This document shows positions 1-18,813 of a stretch of DNA of 64,000 bases, piece after piece. Position 1 is the stretch's first letter. The number at the start of each line of letters is the position of its first letter. The notes under the pieces are model-generated. The model was given only the letters and a program-made list of their open reading frames with translations. It was not told the origin of the DNA and searched no databases. The position numbers and the translations under genes were made by a program. The stretch is taken from contig JBPOIL010000001.1 of assembly GCA_052034495.1 (NCBI GenBank), positions 84,293 through 148,292 on the forward strand, in the 5' to 3' direction. Origin of the DNA: Patescibacteria group bacterium (GTDB taxonomy: Bacteria > Patescibacteriota > Saccharimonadia > CAILAD01 > JADZBC01).

Positions 1-1
1 A

Positions 2-1324
2 CTTGTTTATATTGACCCGCCTTACAACACCAAAGGTGCTAACGACATATTTACCTACAATAATAGTTTCAACCACAGTGCGTGGCTAACCTTTATGAAG
101 AACCGTCTTGAAGTAGCCCACGAAATGCTTCGCAACGATGGTTTCATAGCGATAACTATTGACCACGTTGAGTTGTTCTATCTTGGTGCATTGGCAGATG
201 AGGTTTTTGGTGCGGAAAACCGTGTAGGCGTTGTAACTATTCTTATCAACCCAAAGGGGCGTCAGCACGAGAAGTTCTTTTCTGCTTCAACGGAGTATAT
301 GCTCGTCTATGCCAAAGACATTTCAAAGGCACAATTTGAGCAAGTTACTCTTGATGATGAAATTGCCCAAACCTTTGACCAGCAAGACGAACAGGGCAAG
401 TTTAGGTGGCAGTCATTTGCTCGTATTAGAACAAGCACAAGCCGTGAAGCAAAGCCCGCTTTTTATTACCCGATATACGTCAGTCCAGACTTACAGCATA
501 TTACTACTGACAACCTAGATGGTTATACCCCTGTTTACCCTGTATCAAATGGTAAGGATTATAGCTGGAAAACAAAGCCAGATACCTTTGCCGAACGTCT
601 TGCTGATGGTCAATACCGAGCTTATAAAAACGGAAATGGAAACATTGAAATACAGCACAAATATCGTGAACAGCAAGTTCTAAAAAACTTATGGACCGAC
701 AAAAAGTATTTCCCAGAGTTTCAGGGAACAAACCTATTGAAAAAGATAGTAGGCGAAGGTAAGTTCAGTTACCCTAAGTCGCTTTATGCTGTTATGGACA
801 CTATAAAACTTATGTCGTCAGGCGATGATATTGTATTGGACTTTTTCGCTGGTTCAAGTACCACTGGACACGCCGTTCTTGAATTGAACGCAATTGACGG
901 CGGAAACAGGCGGTTTATACTCGCAGAACAAATTGAGAAACATTATGACGTTGGTGTTGAACGAATTACAAAGGTAACGAAGGCACTGGATAGTAACGCT
1001 GAAACAATTTGCTTTGAACTAAAAAAATACAACCAAGAATACCTAGACGCCATTATGGAAGCAACGAGCATAAAGGAACTTGAAGACTTGTATGTTGATA
1101 TGCGTAACAATGCCTTCTTGAAGTTTTGGTTTGACCGAGCCGAGTTTGAGAAAGACGAAAACTTCCGAAGCAAAGATTTAGAAGGTCGCAAACAGGCACT
1201 TGCCGACATACTAGACGAAAACCAACTATACCTCAACTACGCCGATATGAACGATACACGTCATACAGTGTCGTCAGACGAGAAGGCACTAACGGACAAG
1301 TTCTATGGCGAAAACGAAAACTAA
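2..1324 (+). CDS. mod: Type III restriction-modification Mod subunit, N6-adenine DNA methyltransferase; 5' end cut by window edge
   Basis: Frame from nt 2 reads LVYIDPPYNT (the DPPY catalytic motif). Long ORF is 20 nt upstream-overlapped by a DEAH helicase-type res gene. Confidence 0.8.
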   Translation, partial: LVYIDPPYNTKGANDIFTYNNSFNHSAWLTFMKNRLEVAHEMLRNDGFIAITIDHVELFYLGALADEVFGAENRVGVVTILINPKGRQHEKFFSASTEYMLVYAKDISKAQFEQVTLDDEIAQTFDQQDEQGKFRWQSFARIRTSTSREAKPAFYYPIYVSPDLQHITTDNLDGYTPVYPVSNGKDYSWKTKPDTFAERLADGQYRAYKNGNGNIEIQHKYREQQVLKNLWTDKKYFPEFQGTNLLKKIVGEGKFSYPKSLYAVMDTIKLMSSGDDIVLDFFAGSSTTGHAVLELNAIDGGNRRFILAEQIEKHYDVGVERITKVTKALDSNAETICFELKKYNQEYLDAIMEATSIKELEDLYVDMRNNAFLKFWFDRAEFEKDENFRSKDLEGRKQALADILDENQLYLNYADMNDTRHTVSSDEKALTDKFYGENEN

Positions 1325-4133
1325 AATAAATGCGACACTTGGCGACTTCCTATTCAACCAAATAGAAAACGACCCTGCCTACATAGCGTGGCAAGCTGAT
1401 TTTACTATTCCTGAATACGTTACTGACAATTTGAGTAAGACCCTGCGTGAATACCAAATAAAAGCCTTGAAGCACTTTATTTGGCTGTATGAAACCGACA
1501 GAGCCAGAGCAAAGCACCTGCTGTTCAATATGGCGACAGGTACAGGTAAAACGCTCGTAATGGCGTCTGTGGTGCTATACCTATACGCACAAGGCTATCG
1601 CAACTTCCTGTTTCTAGTCCATCAGATACAAATCAAAGACCAAGCACTGAAAAACTTTACCGATTATAAGTTTGAGAAGTACCTATTCAATCCAAAGGGC
1701 GTAAGAATAAACGGGCGTAATGTAGCCGTAAAAGAAGCAAAGAGCATAACAGACACAGACCGCAACGCTATCAACTTTATGTTCTTCAGCACTTCGCTAC
1801 TTTATAATCGCCTGCTTGAAGATAAAGAAAACGGACTTACAGCCCAAGACTTTGCCGACAATGATGTAGTTGTAATTGCTGACGAAGCCCATAGGCTCAA
1901 CGTAGATACCCGAAGCAAAAAGAAGGCTGACATTGAAGAAGTCCGAAACTGGGAAACTGCCGTAATGTCGGCGGTCAAAGCTCGTGAAGGAAACCTGCTA
2001 CTTGAATATACGGCAACTGTTGATTTAGCCAACCAAGCAATTCACGAAAAGTACAAAGACAAGTTAGTTCATCGCTACGACTTTTTGGAGTTCAATCGTG
2101 ATGGTTATAGCAAGGACGTAAAGTTCTTATACAACAAAGAGGTTCATACCGAAGACCAAAAGCGTCTGCTTATCATCAACGCCGTTGCTTTGAGTGAATA
2201 TCGCAGGTTGCTTGCCGAGCGTGAAATGGGCGTTGATATGAAGCCGATTGTGCTAGTAAAGTCAGTCAAAATTGCCCAAAGTGAAGAAGACCGTGCGTTC
2301 TTTGACGGCGTTATTTCTAGCCTACGTCCAGACGACTTGAACCGATTGAAGGAACTTGCCAAGCAAAACGTAAACCACGAACACGAAATACTCAACGATA
2401 TGTTTGCGTGGCTCAAAGAGCCTAAAAACGGCTTTGTTTCGCAAGGCGATTGGGAAGGCTTGAATAAGTTTGTTAGTGAAATACGAGCCAGTTTTGCCCA
2501 CGATAATACGCTCATATACAACAGCCAGAAGAAGGAAAAAGCCGAACTGTTACCGTTGCTGGACAGCCCACGCAACACTATTCGTGCCATATTCAGCGTC
2601 AATGCTTTGAACGAAGGCTGGGACGTATTGAGCCTATACGACATTATTCACTTTGATATTAGCGAAAGTAAGAAAGTCAGTCTTCAAGATATTCAGTTGA
2701 TTGGTCGTGGTGCTAGGTATTTCCCTTATGAACTGCCACGCTCGTATAAGCCAGATGATGATAGCAATAAACTTTCTCTTGATTTTGCTCAACGCAATTT
2801 AGAGTTTGATAAAGACCGCCGAAAGTTTGATAACGCACCTTTTGAGCGTGGTCGTGTGTTGGAAACTTTTGTTTATCACTTCGTAAAGACTGGTATGTTC
2901 CTAGAAAACTTACAGCGTGATTTGCTTGGCGAAGGCATAATCAACGAAGGTGTTGAGCGAAAGACTATTACGCTAAAGACGAAGTTCCTTGAAAGCGAAA
3001 CCTACAAAAAAGGCTTTGTGCTAGTCAACCATACCGTCAAGCGAACCAAAACAACCGAAGACGAAATTGACACAACTTTCAACCGCACTATCAAGGCTGG
3101 TTTGTATAACCTACGGTCAAGGGGCTTATCTGACTATGAGCAAAACCAACAAATTGCGAGCCAGAAAACAAAGGTTATTCGTATTACCGATGAGTTTTTT
3201 GCCGAGCCGATAATACGCAAAGCGTTGGTATCTGCCGAAGCCAACTTTTTCCGCTACAACAACCTAGTTCAGCACATACCTGATTTGAAGACAGTTGACG
3301 AGCTGATAAACGAATACCTGCCAAAATACGAAATTACCTACACTTACGAAGACGGCAAAGATATTGGGTTATTGAACGCACAAGAAAAGTTACAACTGCT
3401 TGTTGGTGCTATTTTGCCAGAAGTTCGTAAGCGTATCGACATTTATATGCCACGAGAAGCAGGAAGTAACAAGTTTCGTCCAGTGTCATTATCGCAGGTG
3501 TTTGGTAAGGAAAAGAACATATACCTTATGTCGTTTCCAAGTATTGACCCTGCGACTGGCGAGAAGGTGTTCATTAGCACTGACGAGCGAGCCAAAGCCC
3601 AAAGCGACCACGACAACCCCGACTTACAGTTCAACGTAAAAGGTGCTGATTGGTATGCGTATAGTGAAAACTATGGCACAAGCGAAGAAAAGAAGTTTGT
3701 GAAATACCTTGCGAGCCAGATTGACGACTTACATATCAAATACAAAGGTGCGGAAATATACCTTGTTCGTAACGAATTGGACTATTGGCTATACAGCCTG
3801 AAAGATGGCCGTAGGTTCAGTCCAGACTATATGCTTATCATCAACGATGTTGCCAATGGCGAACTGTATTATCAGGTAATTATAGAGCCGAAAGGCGGTC
3901 ATTTGCTTGAACAGGACGCTTGGAAAGAAGAAGCCTTGATAAGCCTGAACGATGACAGTGAAGTTGTGTTTGATACCAACGAAAATGACAAGCAAGCATA
4001 CAAAGAATACTTGGCTGAAATGAGCAAGCACGGCTACAAAGAGATAAAGCCAATCGGCATAAAGTTCTATAACACTGACCCACGCCCTGAAAGCGAGTTT
4101 GCCCTAGATTTTGAGAGCAAGTTGCTGGCGTAA
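1305..4133 (+). CDS. res: Type III restriction enzyme Res subunit (SF2 helicase/endonuclease)
   Basis: Walker A ATGTGKTLV, DEAH box VVIADEAHRL, 942 aa. Overlaps the mod stop by 20 nt. Confidence 0.8.
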   Translation: MAKTKTKINATLGDFLFNQIENDPAYIAWQADFTIPEYVTDNLSKTLREYQIKALKHFIWLYETDRARAKHLLFNMATGTGKTLVMASVVLYLYAQGYRNFLFLVHQIQIKDQALKNFTDYKFEKYLFNPKGVRINGRNVAVKEAKSITDTDRNAINFMFFSTSLLYNRLLEDKENGLTAQDFADNDVVVIADEAHRLNVDTRSKKKADIEEVRNWETAVMSAVKAREGNLLLEYTATVDLANQAIHEKYKDKLVHRYDFLEFNRDGYSKDVKFLYNKEVHTEDQKRLLIINAVALSEYRRLLAEREMGVDMKPIVLVKSVKIAQSEEDRAFFDGVISSLRPDDLNRLKELAKQNVNHEHEILNDMFAWLKEPKNGFVSQGDWEGLNKFVSEIRASFAHDNTLIYNSQKKEKAELLPLLDSPRNTIRAIFSVNALNEGWDVLSLYDIIHFDISESKKVSLQDIQLIGRGARYFPYELPRSYKPDDDSNKLSLDFAQRNLEFDKDRRKFDNAPFERGRVLETFVYHFVKTGMFLENLQRDLLGEGIINEGVERKTITLKTKFLESETYKKGFVLVNHTVKRTKTTEDEIDTTFNRTIKAGLYNLRSRGLSDYEQNQQIASQKTKVIRITDEFFAEPIIRKALVSAEANFFRYNNLVQHIPDLKTVDELINEYLPKYEITYTYEDGKDIGLLNAQEKLQLLVGAILPEVRKRIDIYMPREAGSNKFRPVSLSQVFGKEKNIYLMSFPSIDPATGEKVFISTDERAKAQSDHDNPDLQFNVKGADWYAYSENYGTSEEKKFVKYLASQIDDLHIKYKGAEIYLVRNELDYWLYSLKDGRRFSPDYMLIINDVANGELYYQVIIEPKGGHLLEQDAWKEEALISLNDDSEVVFDTNENDKQAYKEYLAEMSKHGYKEIKPIGIKFYNTDPRPESEFALDFESKLLA

Positions 4134-4300
4134 TGAAGCCAATCATATCAGTCAAAGAAGCTCGTAAGTTGCTTGGTAAAGATTATGAAAAGCTGACTGA
4201 CGAGAAGATAGCCGAACTGATTGAGCAACTACACGAACTAGCCAAGTTATCTTTAGATATGGCTCGTGAACAACGCCTCAAAAAACGCTTGGCAAAATGA
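4134..4300 (+). CDS. small hypothetical protein (55 aa) translationally coupled to res
   Basis: ATG overlaps the res stop (TAATG). Basic/helical sequence MKPIISVKEARKLLGKDYEKLTDEKIAELIEQLHELAKLSLDMAREQRLKKRLAK. Below the ORF-track cutoff. Confidence 0.3.
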
Positions 4301-4366
4301 CCCCCAAAAATTCGGCATTTCATATAGCGGAGTGTCAAACAGCGAAACAAAGGGCGACTACCCCCC

Positions 4367-5326
4367 CTATGTTACCTCTGTTGGAACGCCTGTATAGAAG
4401 GCAAGTAAGTCTTCTAAATACTCTTTATTATTGGCATAAGCGTAGTCTTTAGACCAACGCACAAGCAGTAAATTACTTTGAATTATCATCTCCTCGTTTG
4501 TTATAGCGTGTCGTTTCTGCTTTTTACCAGACTTTAGTGGGTCTATAAGTTCAATAAGTATTTCTGGCGTAAGAGCAAAATAGTGTCGTCTTTGGGCTAT
4601 ATGGTTACTGTACATCTTCTCAACCATTGTTTTGCCAGTATTGTTGAACACTTCAACCACTGGCGTATCGGTAGTGATAAACTTCTTTGAGCCTTTAGCC
4701 AGATAGAACCACCATTTCTTTATTACAAACCACCTATGAAACTCTTCGCAATTAGTAATGAGCTGTAAGTGATTGACGTTATTATCAAAAGTCAGTTCAT
4801 ATTCGCCACTTACAAATGTTTTCCTTGCGTCTTCAATCTGTTCATCTGTTACTTGATGTCCTTCTTCTTCCATAGCCTTTTTAGCACCATCGGCAAAGTT
4901 TGGGTGCGTAGCCATTAGTGTAGTGATTTGTTTCATACCGTCAGCCATAGTCTTGTTTATTTGTCTTCGCATATGTGGACTTCTAATCCAAAGGGAAGCC
5001 ATAAACCACGCTAGAATATCTAATTGCTGGTCTGTTAGTGGTCGGTAATTTAGTATAGCGTCAACAATGGCGTCATACTCTTTGGCAAACTTATCTTCAA
5101 TTTCGCCAAAAAATTGCTCAAAGACTTGGCTTGTTTCGTCTTCTTTTCCAGTTTCAACAGCGTAATAAAAATCAGCATAACAAACACCGCTATAAGGTCG
5201 GGGCTTTATGAGTTTGCCTTTTTGAATATCTAAAGTCTGTAACATATTATCAACCGCAAACCGCTTGAAGTAAAAACGAGGTGCGAAATGCTGTTTCTTT
5301 GTTATCTGCTTGGTCATAATTTCCAT
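4367..5326 (-). CDS. DUF4238 family protein (defence-island associated, function unknown)
   Basis: N-terminal KKQHFAPRFYFKRF matches the DUF4238 H-x-P-x-F-Y-L-K-x-F signature. Convergent with the R-M operon. Confidence 0.6.
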   Translation of the reverse strand: MEIMTKQITKKQHFAPRFYFKRFAVDNMLQTLDIQKGKLIKPRPYSGVCYADFYYAVETGKEDETSQVFEQFFGEIEDKFAKEYDAIVDAILNYRPLTDQQLDILAWFMASLWIRSPHMRRQINKTMADGMKQITTLMATHPNFADGAKKAMEEEGHQVTDEQIEDARKTFVSGEYELTFDNNVNHLQLITNCEEFHRWFVIKKWWFYLAKGSKKFITTDTPVVEVFNNTGKTMVEKMYSNHIAQRRHYFALTPEILIELIDPLKSGKKQKRHAITNEEMIIQSNLLLVRWSKDYAYANNKEYLEDLLAFYTGVPTEVT

Positions 5327-5626
5327 TTTACATCTGTATAGGTATGTGTTGAACTGATTGTCTTTCCCAACATTTTATTCCCAACAAGCTGACCACTGTT
5401 AGTGTGTTTGAATTGTTGGGCTATTTTGGAAACAAACGATTTTTTGATACTGACACATTTTTAGGTAGTATGTGCGTTTACGGACTTTCTAAAATATCAA
5501 GGTCAAGGCATAGGGGGGGCTATGCTACGCTAAGCAACAGCCCCTTTATATTACGAACTTCGCTATCGGCATAGCCCATACTTGCCGTTCGCAGTTCGTT
5601 TGCCAGTGCGAGCCAGTAATTATTCA

Positions 5627-5650
5627 AGGAGACCCAAGGGTCTCTTTTTG
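5627..5650 (+). terminator. GC hairpin plus T-run (gagacc-caag-ggtctc-ttttt) immediately upstream of the next CDS; terminator or attenuator
   Basis: Perfect 6-7 bp stem that includes an AGGAG sequence, followed by TTTTTGG. Confidence 0.3.
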
Positions 5651-5657
5651 GTAATAT

Positions 5658-5942
5658 ATGTGCATGAGCAACACCCTAAAGGCAGGTCCTGTACACACGC
5701 TACCATCAGATCTCAAGAAAGCTTTGGTGGCGAGCCCAAAGGCGCAGGTTGCCTGGAATGATATTACGCCGCTCGCCCGCAACGAGTGGATATGCTGGAC
5801 GATTACCGTAAAGAAGCAAGAGACCCGAGACAACCACGTAAAGAGAACAGTCGAAGAGCTTGCCCAGGGTAAGCGCAGGCCTTGCTGCTGGCCTGGCTGT
5901 CCACACCGTAATCCAAAGGCAGCACGATTTATTAAGCCTTAG
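5658..5942 (+). CDS. YdeI/OmpD-associated (OmdA) family protein
   Basis: C-terminal KKQETRDNHVKRTVEELAQGKR resembles the family consensus ...ETR..RI...E.LA.GK. GC is higher than in the neighbouring genes. Confidence 0.5.
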   Translation: MCMSNTLKAGPVHTLPSDLKKALVASPKAQVAWNDITPLARNEWICWTITVKKQETRDNHVKRTVEELAQGKRRPCCWPGCPHRNPKAARFIKP

Positions 5943-5982
5943 CCCAGGTGTTATAATTCGGTTATAAATAGGGAACTATAAG

Positions 5983-6261
5983 ATGGCAAAAGCAGATAAA
6001 AACAGTCCAGAGCTCGAGATCAAGGCTAGTCTAAAAGGCGCAGAAGACTGGAAGGAATGGTGCAAAGAAAAAGGGAATTCTAACGCGAGCACCCATGGCA
6101 CAAGCGGCGCGCTGTACTTTGTAGGCTTCATTGGCTCGCTCGTATACTGGATGCAAGCGGCTACTAACTTTGGCGCTGTTCTAACCGGCTTTTTGAAGTC
6201 TATGGTTTGGCCGGCGTACTTGGTGTACAAAATGCTCGAAACCTTCTACGGTAAAGTTTAG
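5983..6261 (+). CDS. small hypothetical membrane protein
   Basis: 92 aa ORF with a C-terminal hydrophobic segment. Purine-rich sequence sits ahead of the ATG. Confidence 0.4.
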   Translation: MAKADKNSPELEIKASLKGAEDWKEWCKEKGNSNASTHGTSGALYFVGFIGSLVYWMQAATNFGAVLTGFLKSMVWPAYLVYKMLETFYGKV

Positions 6262-6330
6262 ATAAAGGTCACTGGCTGAGCTAGCCTTCGGTTTTCATAA
6301 AATACCTGTATACTTATAAGCATAAGCGGA

Positions 6331-7752
6331 GTGGAGGTAGTGAAGCGGAGGGCAGATTCCTTAGCAAAAATAGTCGTAGTTGGCACAATGACATTGTCTG
6401 CTTTGCTCCCCTGGATGAGTTCTTCGGCACTTGCCTTTTCGGGCGGGAACGGCAGTGCGGATAGTCCATACAGAATATCTTCATGCGCGGATCTTGCGAA
6501 TATAGCCAGTGACTTGGGCGCTTACTACGAATTGGCAAGCTCGATTAACTGCGATGCTCAGACTGCAGCACCTATCGGCTCTCAGGGTAGCCCCTTTACT
6601 GGCAGCCTAGATGGTAAAGGATACACAATATCCAATATTACCTATGTGGAAAACGCTTCAAAAATGGGGATTTTTGGCGTTACAGATGGAGCGACGATCA
6701 CGAATATGTTTCTTGACAATATCTACTACGGAGGACAAACAGATATTGGCTTAGTCGTTGGCTATGCAGCATCTACCACCATCTCCAAAATTGGAGTTAT
6801 GAATTCAATAGTTGAGGGGGCGAGCCTCCATACTGGCGCTCTAGTTGGATACTTGGGAGGGTCCACAATAGAAGAGAGCTACGCGGTAAACACTACGGTT
6901 ACAGGCGGAGCTATTGTGGGCGGCCTAGTCGGCAATGCTATTGGCCCATCAGGGGTGAGTAATAGCTACTTTCAGGGTACAGTTAACGCAAATGTAGAAG
7001 TCGGCGGTATAGCGGGTGCGGCGGGCCCTGGGCCAGCGTATGTGCAAAAGTCTTATGCAGACGCTATCTTTACTACCGCCGGGAGCGATGTGGTCGGTAC
7101 TGTTGGCGGCGGCGCCTGGGCTAGTGAGAACTTTATTGCGAGCAGTCCGTATCGAGGGAATGATACTGAGCCACCTATGGGCAGCTGGGATTTTGATTCA
7201 GTCTGGGTTGTCCGCACGAATGCCTATCCCACACTGAGGTGGTCGACCAATCTAGCCGACCTAAACGGGGATAGCATCTTAGATATTGATCAGCCAAACA
7301 TTGGCGGCTACGTAAGCTCACTTACTGGCAAGACTGTAGCAATCGACGTCGGGGCTGGCTGCGAACTAACCACTGACGATATGACTACCGAGGCTCAGTT
7401 GGCGGTTCAGGATCCGGCCTATGACTACGTGGACGGATTATGGGCTTTTGAAGCAGACTGCGGCGAGCAAGGAGCAAGTACAACTATAAAACTTTACTAC
7501 TACGATATTGCTGCCGAGGGGCTTGTAGCGCGCAAGCACAACCCAAATACAAATGCTTTCTTTAATATTCCTGGGGCAACGTTTACTCAGCAGACCATAG
7601 ACGGTCACGCCGTGATGGTAGTAACATATCAGATTGAAGATGGCGGCTCCCTAGACACAGACGGAGTGGTAGACGGGATGATCAATGACCCCGCAGGAGT
7701 TGCTAGATTGGTGTTATCGGCTCCAAATACCGGGCTAGGAGGTATAGAATAA
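6331..7752 (+). CDS. secreted GLUG-motif / beta-helix surface protein ending ...APNTGLGGIE
   Basis: Signal peptide present. N-terminus SPYRISSCADLANI...PIG..PFTGSLDGKGYTISNI. Repeated VGGLVG GLUG-type motifs. C-terminal domain is homologous to that of the next gene. Confidence 0.6.
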   Translation: MEVVKRRADSLAKIVVVGTMTLSALLPWMSSSALAFSGGNGSADSPYRISSCADLANIASDLGAYYELASSINCDAQTAAPIGSQGSPFTGSLDGKGYTISNITYVENASKMGIFGVTDGATITNMFLDNIYYGGQTDIGLVVGYAASTTISKIGVMNSIVEGASLHTGALVGYLGGSTIEESYAVNTTVTGGAIVGGLVGNAIGPSGVSNSYFQGTVNANVEVGGIAGAAGPGPAYVQKSYADAIFTTAGSDVVGTVGGGAWASENFIASSPYRGNDTEPPMGSWDFDSVWVVRTNAYPTLRWSTNLADLNGDSILDIDQPNIGGYVSSLTGKTVAIDVGAGCELTTDDMTTEAQLAVQDPAYDYVDGLWAFEADCGEQGASTTIKLYYYDIAAEGLVARKHNPNTNAFFNIPGATFTQQTIDGHAVMVVTYQIEDGGSLDTDGVVDGMINDPAGVARLVLSAPNTGLGGIE

Positions 7753-8843
7753 TGCTTAAAACCCACACACAAAGACTAGCTAGCCTCACAACAGTCTTTG
7801 CCTTGCTGTCCTCGGTAATTCTAAACACAAGTGCATTTACTGGTGTAGCCGTAGCTGCTGGCGAACCAGTAGTGGCTATCACTTCTCAGCCGAGTAATCC
7901 AAGCAATTTAGTTGCTCCTACTTTTGAATTCACCACAGATGAGCCCGCAGACACGTATTGCAGGGTTGACCTCGGCGCTTATGAGATATGCACCAGTCCA
8001 TACGAATTAAGCCCTCTTGCCGAAGGCGCCCACATCTTTCAAGTCTATGCATCGAACGGAGACGGTGACGGTTCAGTGGCCAGTGCTGCTTGGGAAATAG
8101 ACGTTACACCACCCGACACATCTATCGTGGAATCACCGAGCAGCCCCACATCGGATAACACCCCTGTGTTCACATTCACTAGCGCCGACCCAGGGGCAAC
8201 ATTTGAATGCTCAGTTGATGGTGCTGCTGCCGCCGCCTGCACGAGCCCTTACACCACAAGCCCGCTCGCCAATGGCCCTCATGAATTTGAGGTCTACGCT
8301 ATCGACGCCGCAGGTAATGTTGACGCAACGCCAGCTCAAGCATCTTTTGAGGTTGAAACGGGAGTGAACGACTACGAAATCCAAATGAGCTCAGCAGAAG
8401 ACGGCTCACTTATTAACTTTGTAGAAAATGGCTGCAGCACTCTGGGCGAGTGGGAGACTAAAAAGGAATCGGCTCTGGCAGTGCAAGATACCGCCTACGC
8501 CTATCCTGTCGGCCTAGTAAAGTTCCAGCTTGCTGGCTGCCCTATTGCAGGCACGGCAACGATACAGTTGACGTTTACGAGCAACCTCGAACCCAGCGCC
8601 GTGACCATACGAAAGTTCAATGAAGTAACCGGCGCCTTTACCACGCTAACGCAACAGAATAGCGGTCTACAAGTTAACCGCACCACCCAAGAGGGTAAGC
8701 AGGCCCTGCTGGTTGAATACGAGATCGTAGATGGTGGTTTGTTCGACCAAGACGGTGAAGCTAATGGGCAGATTCAAGACCCAGTAGGCTTGGCTACGCA
8801 AGTTGTCGGCATACCGAATACAGGCATAGGCCCAGGTAGATAG
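7752..8843 (+). CDS. secreted protein with two tandem ~80-aa Ig-like repeats, ending ...IPNTGIGPGR
   Basis: Signal peptide present. Repeats: PTFEFTTDEP..YCRVDLG..CTSPYELSPLAEGAHIFQVYA and TPVFTFTSADPGATFECSVDGAAAAACTSPYTTSPLANGPHEFEVYAIDAAGN. ATG overlaps the preceding stop. Confidence 0.6.
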   Translation: MLKTHTQRLASLTTVFALLSSVILNTSAFTGVAVAAGEPVVAITSQPSNPSNLVAPTFEFTTDEPADTYCRVDLGAYEICTSPYELSPLAEGAHIFQVYASNGDGDGSVASAAWEIDVTPPDTSIVESPSSPTSDNTPVFTFTSADPGATFECSVDGAAAAACTSPYTTSPLANGPHEFEVYAIDAAGNVDATPAQASFEVETGVNDYEIQMSSAEDGSLINFVENGCSTLGEWETKKESALAVQDTAYAYPVGLVKFQLAGCPIAGTATIQLTFTSNLEPSAVTIRKFNEVTGAFTTLTQQNSGLQVNRTTQEGKQALLVEYEIVDGGLFDQDGEANGQIQDPVGLATQVVGIPNTGIGPGR

Positions 8844-8858
8844 GCGCTTAGCGAGTAT

Positions 8859-9575
8859 TTGCAGGTCAAACGGAGTTTCGTACGGGTATATCGCTGGGGT
8901 ATACTGGCTTTTATGAAGAAGCATTCCTTTAGTCGATTAGGCGGCATGGTGGAGAGAAGATGGCTAGTGCTGGCATTGATTTTAGCCATGTTTCTAAGCA
9001 TTTGCGCCTTACTAATTGTAAAAAGAGAAAAGCCAGCTCGACAAGCAGCGAGTGTCGTCTCTTACTCTACCAATAAGCCTGATGAAACGAAGCCAAATAA
9101 GTCATACGAGTGGACAGGAAAACCAGAAGACCCGAAGAAGATCTTGATCTCAAGCTTGGGGATAGATGGCTACATGCAGAACGTCGGCGTTGATCAGAAC
9201 AAGGAAGTAGCTGTTCCCAATAATATCCATGTCGCAGGTTGGTTTGTGGAGAGTGTGCGTCCCGGGGAGAAGGGGCTGAGCATTATCGACGGCCACGTGG
9301 ATGGACGGACACAAGGTGGAATATTCGAAGATCTGGCAAAGATAAAACCTGGCGCTGAGGTGCAAATACAATTTGGGAATGGGGCAAAGAAGAAATTCAA
9401 AGTGATGAAGGTCGAGGAGGTTGCAGAGGACAAGGCCGCCAGCGTGTTGTTCTCGCAAAGCCCGAAGACCACGAACCAACTCAACTTGATCACATGCAGC
9501 GGAGACTTTAATAAGAACACTGAACGGTATGAAAAGCGTGTTATTGTCAGCACGGAGCTAGTGCCGCAAAGCTAG
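8859..9575 (+). CDS. sortase family transpeptidase (likely true start at ATG 8913, MKKHSF...)
   Basis: N-terminal TM anchor. Conserved His in IDGHVDGR. Active-site LNLITCSG (TLxTC motif). Confidence 0.7.
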   Translation: MQVKRSFVRVYRWGILAFMKKHSFSRLGGMVERRWLVLALILAMFLSICALLIVKREKPARQAASVVSYSTNKPDETKPNKSYEWTGKPEDPKKILISSLGIDGYMQNVGVDQNKEVAVPNNIHVAGWFVESVRPGEKGLSIIDGHVDGRTQGGIFEDLAKIKPGAEVQIQFGNGAKKKFKVMKVEEVAEDKAASVLFSQSPKTTNQLNLITCSGDFNKNTERYEKRVIVSTELVPQS

Positions 9576-15860: not shown

Positions 15861-16268
15861 ATGGCGGAAAGCAAAGCTGAAGCTAAAGTATCTGGATGGG
15901 TAGGCTGGGTCCTATTCGCTGGCGTAGTATTAATGGTGGCAGGTGCGGTGCAGGCGCTCTATGGCCTAGGGGCATTGTTGAATAATACATTCTTGCTCGT
16001 AACACCTGCTCGAGCAGCAGTCGTAGACGTTACAGCCTGGGGTTGGGTCCACTTGATCGGCGGTTTACTACTTGTAGCAGCTGGCTACTCAGTCACTGCA
16101 GGTAACGCCTTCGGTCGTATCGTAGCAGTTGTGCTAACGTCACTCGCGCTCATTGCGAACATGACTTACGTAACTGCATACCCAGTATGGACAATCATGC
16201 TGATTACGGTGAACGTACTTGTGCTATACGCACTCGTGGTTCACGGTAAGGATCTTAAGAAGTCCTAG
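15861..16268 (+). CDS. hypothetical multi-TM membrane protein
   Basis: Strong RBS TAAGGAGGA. 135 aa with 4 predicted TM segments. Confidence 0.55.
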   Translation: MAESKAEAKVSGWVGWVLFAGVVLMVAGAVQALYGLGALLNNTFLLVTPARAAVVDVTAWGWVHLIGGLLLVAAGYSVTAGNAFGRIVAVVLTSLALIANMTYVTAYPVWTIMLITVNVLVLYALVVHGKDLKKS

Positions 16269-16283
16269 ACTACTTAGATTGTA

Positions 16284-16320
16284 AAGAGGGAGCTTGGCAG
16301 AAACGCCAGCTCCTTTTTTG
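16284..16320. terminator. hairpin ggagcttggc-agaaac-gccagctcc flanked by a T-run; likely bidirectional terminator
   Basis: Inverted repeat followed by TTTTTTGC on the + strand. Lies between convergent genes. Confidence 0.5.
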
Positions 16321-16350
16321 CTATAATACATCCATGCAAAAGATATTCAT

Positions 16351-16749
16351 CTACATAATTCTAGGCTTCTTTTTGATCGCTTCTGTCGTTCCCTTCCTGG
16401 CTCTGTAGGACTTGACAATTAGCCTCGTGTCAGATGTAGCGATATATGTTATAGGGATTATTGCCAGAAAGATTAATGGGTTCATTGCCCATGCATCAGA
16501 GATTCTGGTGTGCAGGAGGAGCCAGTAGGCCCGAGTTAGCCCTATAGACGGAGAGTTTATCCCGGTATTGCTGAAGAGTGAGACCGAAGGCATGCTTACC
16601 AAGAGGTTGTAAGGAATAATTAGCAGAAAAAGACTACCCCCCAAAACTACAAAGAGTCGGGCAGGGGGCGTCTGAAGTCCGATGAGGTTGACTGCCCTAT
16701 TTCTTAATGAGCGGCTGTCCATAGGCATCTTTAAGTGAGCCCGTTGCAA
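16351..16749 (-). CDS. hypothetical membrane protein (start uncertain; overlaps the upstream TM2 gene)
   Basis: 132 aa hydrophobic ORF. Its 5' end overlaps the stop of the 16697..16981 ORF, so an internal start is likely. Confidence 0.3.
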   Translation of the reverse strand: MQRAHLKMPMDSRSLRNRAVNLIGLQTPPARLFVVLGGSLFLLIIPYNLLVSMPSVSLFSNTGINSPSIGLTRAYWLLLHTRISDAWAMNPLIFLAIIPITYIATSDTRLIVKSYRARKGTTEAIKKKPRIM

Positions 16750-16981
16750 TCATAATAATATCTATAATATAGAGGATTCCGCACAGCCCGAAAGTAAATA
16801 GCTTAAGAAGGCCAAGTCCAGTGTGGCCCATGTAGAAACGATCTACACCCCAGTAGCCAAGAAATATCGATAACAGCAGGGCAGTTAGCCAATCTTTCTG
16901 CTCATGGGGTCCTTGCTGTGGCCCAATGTTATTTATAGTGATGTTTGGCTGATTAGCTTCTTGTGGTTTGTTTGTCGCCAT
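16697..16981 (-). CDS. TM2 domain-containing protein
   Basis: LLSIFLGYWGVDRFYMGHTGLGLLKLFTFG matches the TM2 domain motif. Confidence 0.65.
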   Translation of the reverse strand: MATNKPQEANQPNITINNIGPQQGPHEQKDWLTALLLSIFLGYWGVDRFYMGHTGLGLLKLFTFGLCGILYIIDIIMIATGSLKDAYGQPLIKK

Positions 16982-17105
16982 ATAAAAGTTGCTCCCTGAA
17001 TTAGTATAGACATTACACTAAACGATTTTCTTATTCTTTGCAATTATGTTATTTGTGTTATCGTTCGCAAGGTGTAGAATGTAGATATAAACAAGGTATA
17101 CAGTC

Positions 17106-17504
17106 ATGGACTTTATCGCGCCAGTAATTCTTTTTATCTTCTCTTATGTTTATTATCTTATATTTTTCTTGACCTACATGGCTTTTTTGGCGCTACCGTT
17201 TTTGACAGTATGGTCTATGTGGCGAATGTTTAGAAAAGCAGACGAGGAGGGCTGGAAAATATTTATCCCATTCTACAATCTATACATGATTTTCAGAATA
17301 GCAGGAAGAAACGGCTGGGGCTTCTTCTTGTTGCTAATTCCGGTCATTAATATTATTGCTGCTATCGTAGTTGCAATTGATTTAGCCAAACACTTCGGTA
17401 AGAACACACTTTTTGGCCTGTTTGGGTTAGCCTTGTTGCCGACCGTGGGCGTCTTGATACTAGGCCTCAGTGACGCTGAGTACGTTGGCCCTAAGCACGC
17501 CTAG
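17106..17504 (+). CDS. DUF5684 family membrane protein
   Basis: MFRKADEEGWKIFIPFYNLYMIFRIAGRNGWGFFLLLIP pattern typical of DUF5684. Confidence 0.55.
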   Translation: MDFIAPVILFIFSYVYYLIFFLTYMAFLALPFLTVWSMWRMFRKADEEGWKIFIPFYNLYMIFRIAGRNGWGFFLLLIPVINIIAAIVVAIDLAKHFGKNTLFGLFGLALLPTVGVLILGLSDAEYVGPKHA

Positions 17505-17517
17505 GAAGTAAATCTAT

Positions 17518-17676
17518 ATGGCAATCGCCCCGAAATGCGACATCTGTAACAAAGAGTTGCGCGCATTTGGGGCGATTTTGTTTAGTCCTCCAAATGAAAA
17601 TTCAGAGGTAAAGAAGTTCCACGTTTGTGTGACTTGCTACGAGAACTTGTTAGCTACTTTCAAGATTAAAGAGTAG
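17518..17676 (+). CDS. small zinc-ribbon protein (two CxxC pairs), 52 aa
   Basis: CDICN ... CVTCY. Below the ORF-track cutoff. Overlaps the 3' end of the convergent kinase gene. Confidence 0.35.
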   Translation: MAIAPKCDICNKELRAFGAILFSPPNENSEVKKFHVCVTCYENLLATFKIKE

Positions 17677-18813
17677 CTTCGCTACACCCAGCGCCGTTCC
17701 ATTATGAGTACTCAGGCGCTTGGTTTTGATTCCATTGAGCCTTTCTTGTTCTGCCAAGATGTCATCATTCTGGCTGATCCCGCCGTCCACATAGACCACT
17801 TCGCCTGGGTCGAATAGATTCGCTATTACCGGAGCTGCTTCGTTGGCCAGAGAGATCATAAGTGAGTCAAAGGCTGATTTGTCTATGCCGTAAACTTTTG
17901 ACACCCGTGGGGCGGCATTCTCTATTTTGCCCTCAAGGGCGTAGGCGGGCTTGCCGTGCGGTCCTATGGCCAATGTTGTCAGGAAGCCGTCTTTGAGTTG
18001 GAACGTGTCACCAATGAGTCGCATGGGGAATATGCCCGTTCCATAGGTGATCTTTGCAGTTCCTGGCTCGGAGCCCGCGGCGTATAGGCTAGCCTGTTGG
18101 TCACCAATGACTGCCCGAATACCATGCGCCATGTGTGTACTGCTTGTTGCGTAGGAGCCAAAGTTGGACCAGCTGTGCTGAACTTCGGCTAACACACCAC
18201 GATCAACCTTAAATATATGGAGGAGTTCTTCATCCCATTTATGAGTATGGATGTTGAAGAGCATGGTGCGAGATGCGTTCGTATAATCAGTTAAAAAATT
18301 CCCGGTTAACTTGAAGATGAGCCAGCTATCCAAGGTTCCAATCGCGAGATCTTCACATGTCTTGATTGCATCTTGTTGCATGAGCCAATGGATTTTTGGG
18401 GCTGACGAGTAGGGGGTGAGGGCAAGTCCGGTTTTGTAGCGAATAACATCTTCGTAGCCGCGTGACTTTAGCTCATTGCAGTAACCTTCGGTACGCTTAT
18501 CGCTCCACAGAAGGAGTGGTGATAGCGCCTCGCCATTCGACTTATCCCAGGCAACAACACTCTCGCGCTGGTTTGTAATACCAAGGTTTGTTGGTTTAGT
18601 CCCGATAAACACTTCGGCCTGGGCCAGTAAAGATTTACAGGTTGCTAGTATTGTTTCGGGGTCTTGCTCCGCCCAGTCAGTGTGTTTGTGGGTGGTTTGT
18701 ACTGCCTGTTCCTTCGTGAAGACAGATTCAAGTTCCGAGCTGAACACCACTACACGAATGTTTGTGGTGCCTACATCTAGGACGACTGCGAGTTCATTTG
18801 TTGATGAGGTCAC
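17650..18813 (-). CDS. glpK: FGGY-family carbohydrate kinase, glycerol-kinase-like (short form)
   Basis: N-terminal LAVVLDVGTTNIRVVVF. DWAEQDPETIL. GTGIF motif. Confidence 0.6.
   Translation of the reverse strand: MTSSTNELAVVLDVGTTNIRVVVFSSELESVFTKEQAVQTTHKHTDWAEQDPETILATCKSLLAQAEVFIGTKPTNLGITNQRESVVAWDKSNGEALSPLLLWSDKRTEGYCNELKSRGYEDVIRYKTGLALTPYSSAPKIHWLMQQDAIKTCEDLAIGTLDSWLIFKLTGNFLTDYTNASRTMLFNIHTHKWDEELLHIFKVDRGVLAEVQHSWSNFGSYATSSTHMAHGIRAVIGDQQASLYAAGSEPGTAKITYGTGIFPMRLIGDTFQLKDGFLTTLAIGPHGKPAYALEGKIENAAPRVSKVYGIDKSAFDSLMISLANEAAPVIANLFDPGEVVYVDGGISQNDDILAEQERLNGIKTKRLSTHNGTALGVAKLLFNLESS

What the first reader, a model, noticed from the sequence alone, without database searches (positions are those of the whole stretch)
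1..5330. Low-GC defence islet: Type III R-M (mod-res) with coupled small ORF and convergent DUF4238 protein
The mod/res region runs about 42% GC, below the core, which suggests horizontal acquisition. DUF4238 proteins (HxxPxFYLKxF N-terminal signature, present here as HFAPRFYFKRF) recur in defence islands next to R-M systems but have no known mechanism. The direct juxtaposition here (convergent, 230 bp from the res stop) fits that pattern, and the protein may be an R-M accessory or abortive-infection component.
Basis: partly seen in the sequence, partly recalled or inferred. Interest (0 to 1): 0.6.

Follow-up and report, generated by a model that had tools for sequence, protein, structure and literature searches.

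The report
Mobile defence island: restriction system plus DUF4238
The flagged region is the right-hand half of an 11-kb mobile island in a Saccharibacteria (TM7) genome that carries two separate anti-phage modules, a Type III restriction-modification system and a stand-alone DUF4238 gene whose family is already proven to block phage but whose mechanism is still unknown.

Summary
There is a cut-off mod gene, a complete 942-aa Type III res, a 55-aa ORF whose start overlaps the res stop (TAATG), and a convergent 319-aa DUF4238 protein (Pfam E = 3e-32). GC is 0.42 against 0.50 for the rest of the window.

The region is the right half of an 11,162-bp island. A large serine recombinase inserted it at the 3' end of tRNA-Asn in a Saccharibacterium, and its last base is window 5615.

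DUF4238 is already an experimentally validated single-gene anti-phage system (Rousset 2022, E. coli P2 hotspot, anti-T7). It is not a restriction-modification (R-M) accessory. Type III R-M sits beside it only in this island lineage and in none of 76 other species-level loci. Sister islands keep DUF4238 with different cargo or with none. Its immediate neighbours share no common family.

The window protein is a distant relative of the validated one (about 20% identity, hhalign 98%). Its confident predicted fold has no solved-structure relative. It keeps an enzyme-like set of conserved His/Asp/Glu/Arg residues.

The small ORF is a real, conserved Saccharibacteria protein that ends various restriction-type operons but can be lost.

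Verdict: a new member of known kinds, of moderate interest.

The parts
1..1324 (+). 3' 441 codons of the Type III mod gene (frame 2..1324). The full gene is 571 aa on source contig L020.
   Evidence: PF01555 E = 2.3e-29; PADLOC MTase_III 3.5e-67. DPPY at residue 136 precedes FAGS at 413 in the full protein, the beta-class order. Full length from L020.
210..1013 (+). Variable target-recognition region of mod
   Evidence: DNA homology to sister islands L022, L024 and L009 is lost here while res stays 96-98% identical. Mod is only 44-61% identical in L022-L024.
1305..4133 (+). Type III res, 942 aa, overlapping mod by 20 nt
   Evidence: ResIII 2.2e-27; PADLOC REase_III 3.5e-99; GTGKT79, DEAH193, PD840...EPK.
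4133..4300 (+). 55-aa 'KEARKLLG' helical protein, start overlapping the res stop (TAATG)
   Evidence: 97 homologous clusters of 50-95 aa in Saccharibacteria. Calculable dN/dS for pairs with the window or L022 sequence is 0.06-0.14 (0.06-0.28 over all calculable pairs), with saturated synonymous sites. K8 E9 A10 R11 K12 L14 G15 are invariant. AF2 pLDDT 89: short helix plus long helix. It is the last gene of different restriction-type operons and is lost or disrupted in L023/24 and L009-14.
4367..5326 (-). DUF4238 single-gene defence candidate (319-aa ORF; probable start at 5317, 316 aa)
   Evidence: PF14022 3e-32. hhalign probability 98.3% and E = 2.6e-14 to the validated E. coli protein. dN/dS 0.02-0.11. 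AF2 pLDDT 90.2.
5325..5352 (-). Promoter-like site directly upstream of DUF4238 (TCAACA-16-TAAAAT)
   Evidence: Consensus scan only. It lies inside the 4279-5352 DNA block shared with islands that lack R-M.
5327..5615 (.). Non-coding right arm of the island, with inverted repeats (GGGCTATGC/GCATAGCCC and others)
   Evidence: Conserved in L021-L024 and L028 up to exactly 5615.
5585..5615 (+). Island terminus: a tRNA-3'-end-like arm ending GAGCCA (inferred attR half-site)
   Evidence: Six genomes share sequence up to this point and then diverge completely. tRNA-Asn at the other junction ends GGAGCCA. Similarity to the tRNA itself is weak.
5626..5649 (+). Hairpin plus T-run in the chromosomal flank (inferred displaced terminator of tRNA-Asn)
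   Evidence: Inverted repeat I7 followed by TTTTT. By eye, each of the six unrelated flanks starts with a hairpin plus T-run.
5658..5942 (+). OmdA/YdeI-family gene, the first chromosomal gene outside the island (not part of the system)
   Evidence: PF13376 3.2e-17. GC rises to 0.51 here.

Best explanation
Window 1-5615 is the right-hand half of an 11,162-bp integrative island in a Saccharibacteria (TM7) chromosome. The island begins right after the CCA end of tRNA-Asn(GTT), about 5.5 kb left of the window, and was inserted by a 511-aa large serine recombinase (LSR). The reading frame of that recombinase runs out of the island into the complement of the tRNA 3' end.

The cargo is two independent anti-phage modules plus one small gene.

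(1) A complete Type III restriction-modification operon, with mod and res translationally coupled. From established knowledge of EcoP15I-type enzymes, Mod methylates one strand of a short asymmetric site, and the Mod-Res complex uses ATP to communicate between unmethylated sites and cut incoming DNA. The Mod recognition region is swapped between sister islands, which changes specificity.

(2) A separately transcribed, convergent DUF4238 gene that works alone, as its distant E. coli relative does against T7. I infer that it is an enzyme rather than a passive binder, because a set of polar residues (Q12, H13, Y19, Y55, D63, Q67, E70, E77, R115, R120, N183, H186, T218, D220, N285) stays conserved down to about 20% identity. 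I infer that it acts as a second, DNA-modification-independent layer, probably by attacking a nucleic-acid or nucleotide substrate once infection is sensed.

(3) The 55-aa KEARKLLG protein is a genuine, dispensable tail gene of restriction-type operons in these islands, most likely a modulator of the upstream nuclease or operon. This last point is inference.

What is shown: gene identities, island borders, cargo mosaicism, independence from R-M, purifying selection. What is inferred: anti-phage activity in this host and the DUF4238 chemistry. The confidence of 0.72 given for this explanation is for the island-with-two-independent-defence-modules picture. My confidence in the nucleic-acid or nucleotide enzyme idea is only about 0.25-0.3.
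For: Gene identities:
- Family assignments.

Source and host:
- Source contig L020 is identical to the window over 15,326 nt and supplies the missing left half: HTH_3, HTH_17, four unknown genes and an LSR.
- Host is Saccharibacteria by homologue names and genome titles.

Island ends:
- tRNA-Asn overlaps the LSR 3' end by 27 nt. The same arrangement occurs with tRNA-Gly and tRNA-Pro in other islands, and a recombinase tblastn match overlaps tRNA-Trp in L025/L027.
- The shared sequence ends at 5615 in six genomes, with unrelated flanks that each start with a terminator-like hairpin.
- GC steps from 0.38 to 0.51 there.

Independence of DUF4238 from R-M:
- 0 of 76 non-lineage loci have mod/res beside DUF4238.
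- Neighbours are heterogeneous.
- L028 and L030 retain DUF4238 without R-M.
- The 4279-5352 cassette, with its own promoter-like site, is shared with R-M-free islands.

Defence role:
- The family is validated as a single gene against T7 (PMC9122126), and the window protein aligns to that protein at hhalign probability 98.3%.
- Sister islands carry Gabija-like genes, PDC-S19, PDC-M36A or a Type II R-M in equivalent slots.
- 15 IMG/VR viral contigs and phage Smp131 carry relatives.

Functional constraint:
- dN/dS 0.02-0.11.
- Conserved polar residues across 147 members below 40% identity.
Against: - No experiment exists for this protein or this host.
- The protein is only about 20% identical to the validated E. 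coli protein and does not hit PADLOC's DUF4238-Pers model.
- N183 and H186 are not obviously conserved in the E. coli protein.
- I could not view the model coordinates to test whether the conserved residues cluster.
- Some distant homologues have housekeeping neighbours.
- No empty attB site or circular attP junction was recovered. The resemblance of the island terminus to the tRNA 3' end is not above a shuffled-query null.
Confidence: 0.72

Rival explanations
1. DUF4238 is an accessory or abortive-infection partner of the adjacent Type III R-M system. In this view it needs Mod or Res to sense or act.
For: The convergent juxtaposition is conserved across this island lineage: L009-L014 at 84% identity and L021-L024 at 96-98%. 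Res and DUF4238 stay near-identical in L022-L024 while mod diverges.
Against: - 0 of 76 other species-level loci have mod/res near DUF4238.
- Homologues at 85-87% identity lie in R-M-free contexts.
- L028 (same recombinase) and L030 keep an intact DUF4238 without R-M.
- It is a separate, opposite-strand transcription unit.
- The validated family member works as a single gene.
Confidence: 0.07
2. DUF4238 is mainly a selfish stabilisation (addiction or toxin-like) gene of the mobile island, and any anti-phage effect is secondary.
For: It sits at the island edge and survives when the rest of the island has decayed (L030, L024). It is widespread on mobile elements and prophages.
Against: No cognate antitoxin-like partner is conserved. 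A lone toxin cannot enforce retention. The E. coli relative could be cloned and gave strong T7 resistance. Strong purifying selection in a recombinase-less remnant (dN/dS 0.076 in L030) fits a benefit to the host.
Confidence: 0.1
3. In this reduced epibiont genome DUF4238 has a non-defence role, for example handling host-derived or transforming DNA or a metabolic function, and merely travels on islands.
For: The mechanism is unknown, the fold has no known relative, and some distant homologues have housekeeping neighbours. Saccharibacteria are naturally competent according to the abstract of PMC10187176.
Against: The gene has a patchy, island-bound distribution and low GC. It shares a slot with known or candidate defence genes. 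The family has been validated as defence.
Confidence: 0.1

Closest known systems
DUF4238 single-gene anti-phage system (E. coli TA007 P2-prophage hotspot, plasmid pFR101; Rousset et al. 2022; PADLOC 'DUF4238-Pers')
   Same: Same Pfam family (PF14022) over the whole length. Shared motifs are H-F...Y-L-K-x-F, R-x-P-x-x-R, F-I-T-S/T-D-x-P-V and F-N. It is a single gene of about 310 aa with no partner, carried as swappable cargo of a mobile element.
   Different: Only about 20% identity. It does not hit the PADLOC model built on the E. coli protein. The host is a CPR (Candidate Phyla Radiation) bacterium, and the carrier is a serine-recombinase island at a tRNA gene rather than a P2 prophage. Activity is untested.
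Type III restriction-modification systems (EcoP15I/EcoP1I type)
   Same: mod comes before res with overlapping reading frames. Mod is a beta-class adenine methyltransferase (DPPY before FxGxG). Res has SF2 helicase motifs and a C-terminal PD-(D/E)xK nuclease motif.
   Different: A 55-aa gene is coupled to the res stop. No simple-sequence repeats of the kind that give phase variation in pathogen mod genes were found. Recognition site and cleavage are unknown.
Integrative islands and prophages mobilised by large serine recombinases
   Same: The 511-aa recombinase has Resolvase, Recombinase and Zn_ribbon_recom domains at one island end. Small HTH genes lie next to it. There is no long direct repeat at the ends, only a 6-nt shared core (GAGCCA).
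   Different: The target is the 3' end of tRNA genes (Asn here; Gly, Pro and Trp in relatives), and the recombinase reading frame ends inside the complement of the tRNA. From my own knowledge, tRNA targeting is typical of tyrosine integrases. I found no description of this arrangement in Saccharibacteria.
Defence hotspots of P2/P4 elements and Pseudomonas genomic islands
   Same: A conserved backbone with a slot in which unrelated defence genes replace each other: DUF4238, PDC-S19, Gabija-like genes, PDC-M36A, Type II or Type III R-M (PMC9122126; PMC12629846).
   Different: Different backbone, different recombinase class, different phylum.

Membership tests
Type III restriction-modification system | Mod subunit: N6-adenine methyltransferase of the beta class (motif IV DPPY before motif I FxGxG, recognition domain between them) | tested here: met
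   PF01555 2.3e-29; PADLOC MTase_III 3.5e-67; DPPY at residue 136 and FAGS at 413 of the full 571-aa protein.
Type III restriction-modification system | Res subunit: SF2 helicase/ATPase motifs plus a C-terminal PD-(D/E)xK nuclease motif | tested here: met
   ResIII 2.2e-27; PADLOC REase_III 3.5e-99 over residues 33-888; GTGKT79, DEAH193, PD840...EPK.
Type III restriction-modification system | mod immediately upstream of res in one operon | tested here: met
   20-nt overlap, same strand.
Type III restriction-modification system | Hemi-methylation of an asymmetric site and ATP-dependent cleavage that needs inversely oriented unmethylated sites | not testable with these tools
   Needs methylome data or biochemistry.
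DUF4238 anti-phage system | Full-length PF14022 domain | tested here: met
   E = 3e-32, 112.6 bits against a cut-off of 27, model positions 1-280 of 281.
DUF4238 anti-phage system | Homology to the experimentally validated protein | tested here: met
   BLASTP 20% identity, E = 7e-05; hhalign probability 98.3%, E = 2.6e-14 over 267 columns.
DUF4238 anti-phage system | Detected by the dedicated defence-annotation model (PADLOC DUF4238-Pers) | tested here: not met
   No PADLOC hit at E <= 0.01, while the E. coli protein scores 2.5e-217. The model is narrow, so this lowers automatic detection rather than family membership.
DUF4238 anti-phage system | Acts as a single gene, with no conserved partner | tested here: met
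   No neighbour family recurs. The gene occurs alone in L030.
DUF4238 anti-phage system | Protects against phage | not testable with these tools
   Needs a plaque assay.
Large-serine-recombinase integrative element | Recombinase with Resolvase, Recombinase and zinc-ribbon domains at an element end | tested here: met
   511-aa gene on L020, outside the window.
Large-serine-recombinase integrative element | Defined junctions with the chromosome (attL/attR) and presence/absence polymorphism | tested here: inconclusive
   Both junctions are mapped to the base by comparing six genomes, and cargo and decay variants were seen. No empty site or circular junction was recovered.

The most novel reading that the evidence does not exclude
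DUF4238 is an enzyme with a previously unseen fold that senses infection and acts on its own. The Saccharibacteria elements that carry it are an undescribed class of defence-cargo islands: a large serine recombinase targets tRNA 3' ends and reads into the tRNA. The conserved KEARKLLG mini-protein is a new regulator attached to restriction-type operons.
Probability: 0.3. Interest if true: 0.6.

Novelty: new member of a known kind. Interest (0 to 1): 0.4.

Why it matters
CPR (Candidate Phyla Radiation) bacteria such as Saccharibacteria have tiny genomes and rarely carry CRISPR (abstract of PMC6509639), so how they resist phage is poorly known. This locus shows a compact, exchangeable two-layer defence package moving between their genomes on a recombinase island. 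It also shows that DUF4238 is kept under strong selection even when the rest of the island is lost.

The work supplies a diverse, well-aligned DUF4238 set, a confident model, and a short list of conserved residues to mutate. That makes the unknown mechanism of an already validated defence family directly testable.

One practical point: a standard defence annotation tool (PADLOC) misses this gene.

Tried and rejected
- **Displaced tRNA copy at the distal island end.** Local alignment of each tRNA against its island gave nothing above shuffled-query scores, so I first discarded a tRNA-like stretch I had seen by eye. Boundary comparison later showed that this stretch (5585-5615) is the exact island terminus. 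I keep it as the terminus but not as a proven tRNA remnant.
- **Relation between DUF4238 and the PDC-S19/DUF3644 protein in the same slot.** None: hhalign probability 3.5%.
- **N-terminal extensions in some family members.** They contain no Pfam domain.
- **tblastn against 50,697 GenBank phages.** No match at E <= 1e-3.
- **Empty site and circular form.** An exact look-up of the flanking OmdA protein, an OmdA-start pattern in JGI metagenomes and the predicted attP junction in viral contigs all returned nothing.
- **RNA elements and repeats.** Rfam found nothing in 1-8000. There are no phase-variation repeats in mod.
- **Literature.** A search for PF14022 returned only Plasmodium gene identifiers.
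- **Small protein against PDB.** Only designed helical repeats matched, which is compositional.
- **TIR paper (PMC11350192).** It does not say whether DUF4238 is fused to TIR or encoded separately, so it cannot settle a sensor-versus-effector role.
Full report
**Observation.**
- An ORF enters from the left edge (frame 2..1324) and starts with ...LVYIDPPYNT.
- A 942-aa ORF lies at 1305..4133.
- A 55-aa ORF lies at 4133..4300. Its ATG shares a base with the res stop (gcgTAATGaag).
- A 319-aa ORF lies on the minus strand at 4367..5326.

Pfam, PADLOC and NCBIfam scans identify the first two as Type III Mod (PF01555; PADLOC MTase_III 3.5e-67) and Res (ResIII; PADLOC REase_III 3.5e-99). Catalytic motifs are intact: DPPY and FAGS in Mod; GTGKT, DEAH and PD...EPK in Res. 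The minus-strand protein is a full-length DUF4238 (PF14022, E = 3e-32) carrying HFAPRFYFKRF at residues 13-23. Homologues start at its fourth codon, so the true product is probably 316 aa. GC is 0.418 for 1-5616 against 0.500 for the rest. No equal-sized window elsewhere falls below 0.476.

**Host and true extent.** The closest DUF4238 homologues (82-98% identity) come from Saccharibacteria / Saccharimonadales / Microsaccharimonas genomes. An exact-protein look-up found a 27-kb contig (L020) that is identical to the window over 15,326 nt and extends it leftwards. In window orientation the order is:
- tRNA-Asn(GTT)
- a 511-aa large serine recombinase on the opposite strand
- four genes without family matches (374, 99, 71 and 364 aa)
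- HTH_17 and HTH_3 genes
- mod (571 aa), res, the 55-aa gene, and DUF4238 on the opposite strand
- then OmdA and cell-surface and sortase genes

GC is 0.38-0.46 across this stretch and jumps to 0.51 just right of 5,567.

**Island borders.** The recombinase gene ends 27 nt inside the complement of the tRNA-Asn 3' end. The same overlap is seen with tRNA-Asn in L009 (42 nt), tRNA-Gly in L001 and tRNA-Pro in L003 and L017 (12 nt each). In L025/L027 a recombinase tblastn match overlaps tRNA-Trp.

Comparing L020 with five sister genomes (L021-L024, L028) shows 84-97% DNA identity that stops at one base, window 5615. The shared sequence there ends ...GTTCGTTTGCCAGTGCGAGCCA. Beyond it lie six unrelated flanks, each starting with a hairpin plus T-run. 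On the other side every tRNA-Asn ends ...GGAGCCA, followed by conserved island sequence ATTTTGTGAAAGAG.

I read this as attL and attR of a serine-recombinase element with a short shared core, and the flank hairpins as the displaced tRNA terminators. The island is 11,162 bp. The junctions are shown. The recombination chemistry, the terminator reading and present-day mobility are inferred. I recovered no empty site or circle junction, and the terminus resembles the tRNA only weakly.

**Is DUF4238 tied to the restriction system?** It is not.
- Homologues at 84% identity (L009-L014) have the same mod-res/DUF4238 arrangement. Homologues at 85-87% identity lie next to DUF8370/8371 (PADLOC candidate PDC-M36A), a Gabija-like OLD-ATPase plus UvrD pair, or unknown genes. 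All of these have a large serine recombinase within about 1-8 kb.
- In a scan of one genome per species, 80 loci were recovered. tblastn with Mod and Res found them beside DUF4238 only in L021-L024, which are this same island lineage. None of the other 76 loci had them.
- At the same tRNA-Asn site, L028 has the same recombinase (96%) and DUF4238 with other cargo genes in place of mod-res. L024 has lost most of the recombinase. L030 retains only an intact DUF4238 plus a 100-aa recombinase fragment. L101-L104 carry a Type II R-M, the small gene and a DUF3644/EC042_2821 protein (PADLOC PDC-S19) where DUF4238 would be. DUF4238 and PDC-S19 are unrelated.
- Bulk scans of the two nearest ORFs on each side in 53 loci found a mixture: Type I, II and IIG R-M parts, defence candidates, recombinases and transposases, and some housekeeping genes. 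No Pfam family occurred in more than 3 of 110 or 2 of 93 neighbours.
- The DNA block 4279-5352 (the gene, 88 nt downstream and a promoter-like site upstream) is shared with islands that lack R-M.

**What is known about DUF4238.** Rousset et al. 2022 cloned a single DUF4238 gene from an E. coli P2-prophage hotspot and found strong resistance to T7, with molecular function unknown (PMC9122126). Later genome surveys list DUF4238 among the defence systems they count. A TIR-containing E. coli system also includes a DUF4238 domain. I found no mechanistic study.

I took the validated protein sequence from that paper's supplement. It is about 20% identical to the window protein and aligns at hhalign probability 98.3%, E = 2.6e-14, with shared motifs. 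PADLOC's model DUF4238-Pers scores the E. coli protein at 2.5e-217 but misses the window protein.

The family is large, with 11,782 clusters at 50% identity at E <= 1e-3. It occurs on 15 IMG/VR viral contigs and in Stenotrophomonas phage Smp131.

Across 147 members below 40% identity, these residues stay 82-99% conserved: Q12, H13, Y19, Y55, D63, Q67, E70, E77, R115, R120, N183, H186, T218, D220 and N285 (that call's numbering is shifted by 3, corrected here). dN/dS against relatives is 0.02-0.11.

Such a conserved polar set suggests catalysis. I therefore favour an autonomous enzyme acting on a nucleic-acid or nucleotide substrate after infection. This is inference, at about 0.25-0.3 confidence.

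**The small ORF.** It is not noise.
- It has 97 homologous clusters of 50-95 aa in Saccharibacteria.
- It has an invariant KEARKLLG motif.
- Synonymous sites are saturated while the protein remains 85-90% identical. Calculable dN/dS for pairs involving the window or L022 sequence is 0.06-0.14, and up to 0.28 over all calculable pairs.
- The confident model is a short helix plus a long helix.
- In four different contexts it is the last, abutting gene of a co-directional operon: after Type III res here, after a Type II endonuclease in L101-104, after MTase-helicase-DUF2779-62aa in L105-107, and after 281-aa and 154-aa genes in L108-111.
- It can be lost. It is interrupted by a stop and a deletion in L009-L014. 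It gives no tblastn hit in L023/L024, where the res-DUF4238 spacer is only about 45-90 nt.

Its function is unknown. A modulator of the upstream nuclease or operon is my best guess.

**Comparison and verdict.** The R-M passes every sequence-level test for Type III. The DUF4238 protein is a distant member of a validated single-gene defence family. The carrier is a serine-recombinase island with an exchangeable defence slot, comparable in logic to P2/P4 hotspots. The finding is real and correctly located. Its central speculation, a functional R-M/DUF4238 pairing, is not supported. It is a new member of known kinds. Three points deserve follow-up: the fold and conserved residues of DUF4238, the tRNA-targeting recombinase islands of Saccharibacteria, and the KEARKLLG protein.

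Noticed in passing
L020 19365-20948 (left of the window); also L009, L001, L003, L017, L025, L027: The large serine recombinase genes of these Saccharibacteria islands end inside the complement of a tRNA gene's 3' end. The overlap with the called gene is 12-42 nt for tRNA-Asn, Gly and Pro. In L025/L027 a recombinase tblastn match overlaps tRNA-Trp. The recombinase C-terminus is therefore encoded across the attachment junction. A literature search on Saccharibacteria and serine recombinases found no description of this.
   Followed up: partly
L004-L008 versus L003 (positions about 13.7-18.2 kb): A Gabija-like pair (OLD-TOPRIM ATPase plus UvrD helicase) lies between the recombinase and tRNA-Pro in some strains and is absent in L003. 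This suggests a second insertion at the same tRNA site.
   Followed up: no
window 210-1013; L022, L023, L024: Res and DUF4238 are 96-98% identical between sister islands, but Mod is only 44-61% identical because its central recognition region is replaced. This implies recent specificity switching.
   Followed up: partly
L021 and L023 (both from MAG CAZYMH01): One metagenome-assembled genome carries two copies of the res/DUF4238 arrangement (98% and 96% identity) on different contigs with different mod genes. This could be strain mixing in a co-assembly or two islands in one genome.
   Followed up: no
window 5327-5615: The 290-nt non-coding stretch between DUF4238 and the island end is rich in inverted repeats (for example GGGCTATGC/GCATAGCCC around a G7 run, and a TTCCCAACA direct repeat). 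These are possible recombinase or regulator binding sites. There is no Rfam match.
   Followed up: partly
window 16100-17900: A second low-GC patch (0.417-0.431) encodes small predicted membrane proteins. No mobile-element genes were seen, and it appears unremarkable.
   Followed up: partly
window 6331-9575: Two large secreted or surface proteins (473 and 363 aa) with similar C-terminal regions are followed by a sortase-like gene just right of the island. Sister genomes also have a sortase and then NrdD/NrdG on that side.
   Followed up: no
L020 16343-19295 (left of the window); L101-L104; L009: The island backbone genes (about 364, 71, 99 and 374 aa) are conserved between islands with different cargo. 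They have no Pfam hit apart from a weak SpoVG match for the 99-aa gene, and the three scanned against PADLOC (364, 99 and 374 aa) gave no hit. Their role in the island life cycle is unknown.
   Followed up: no
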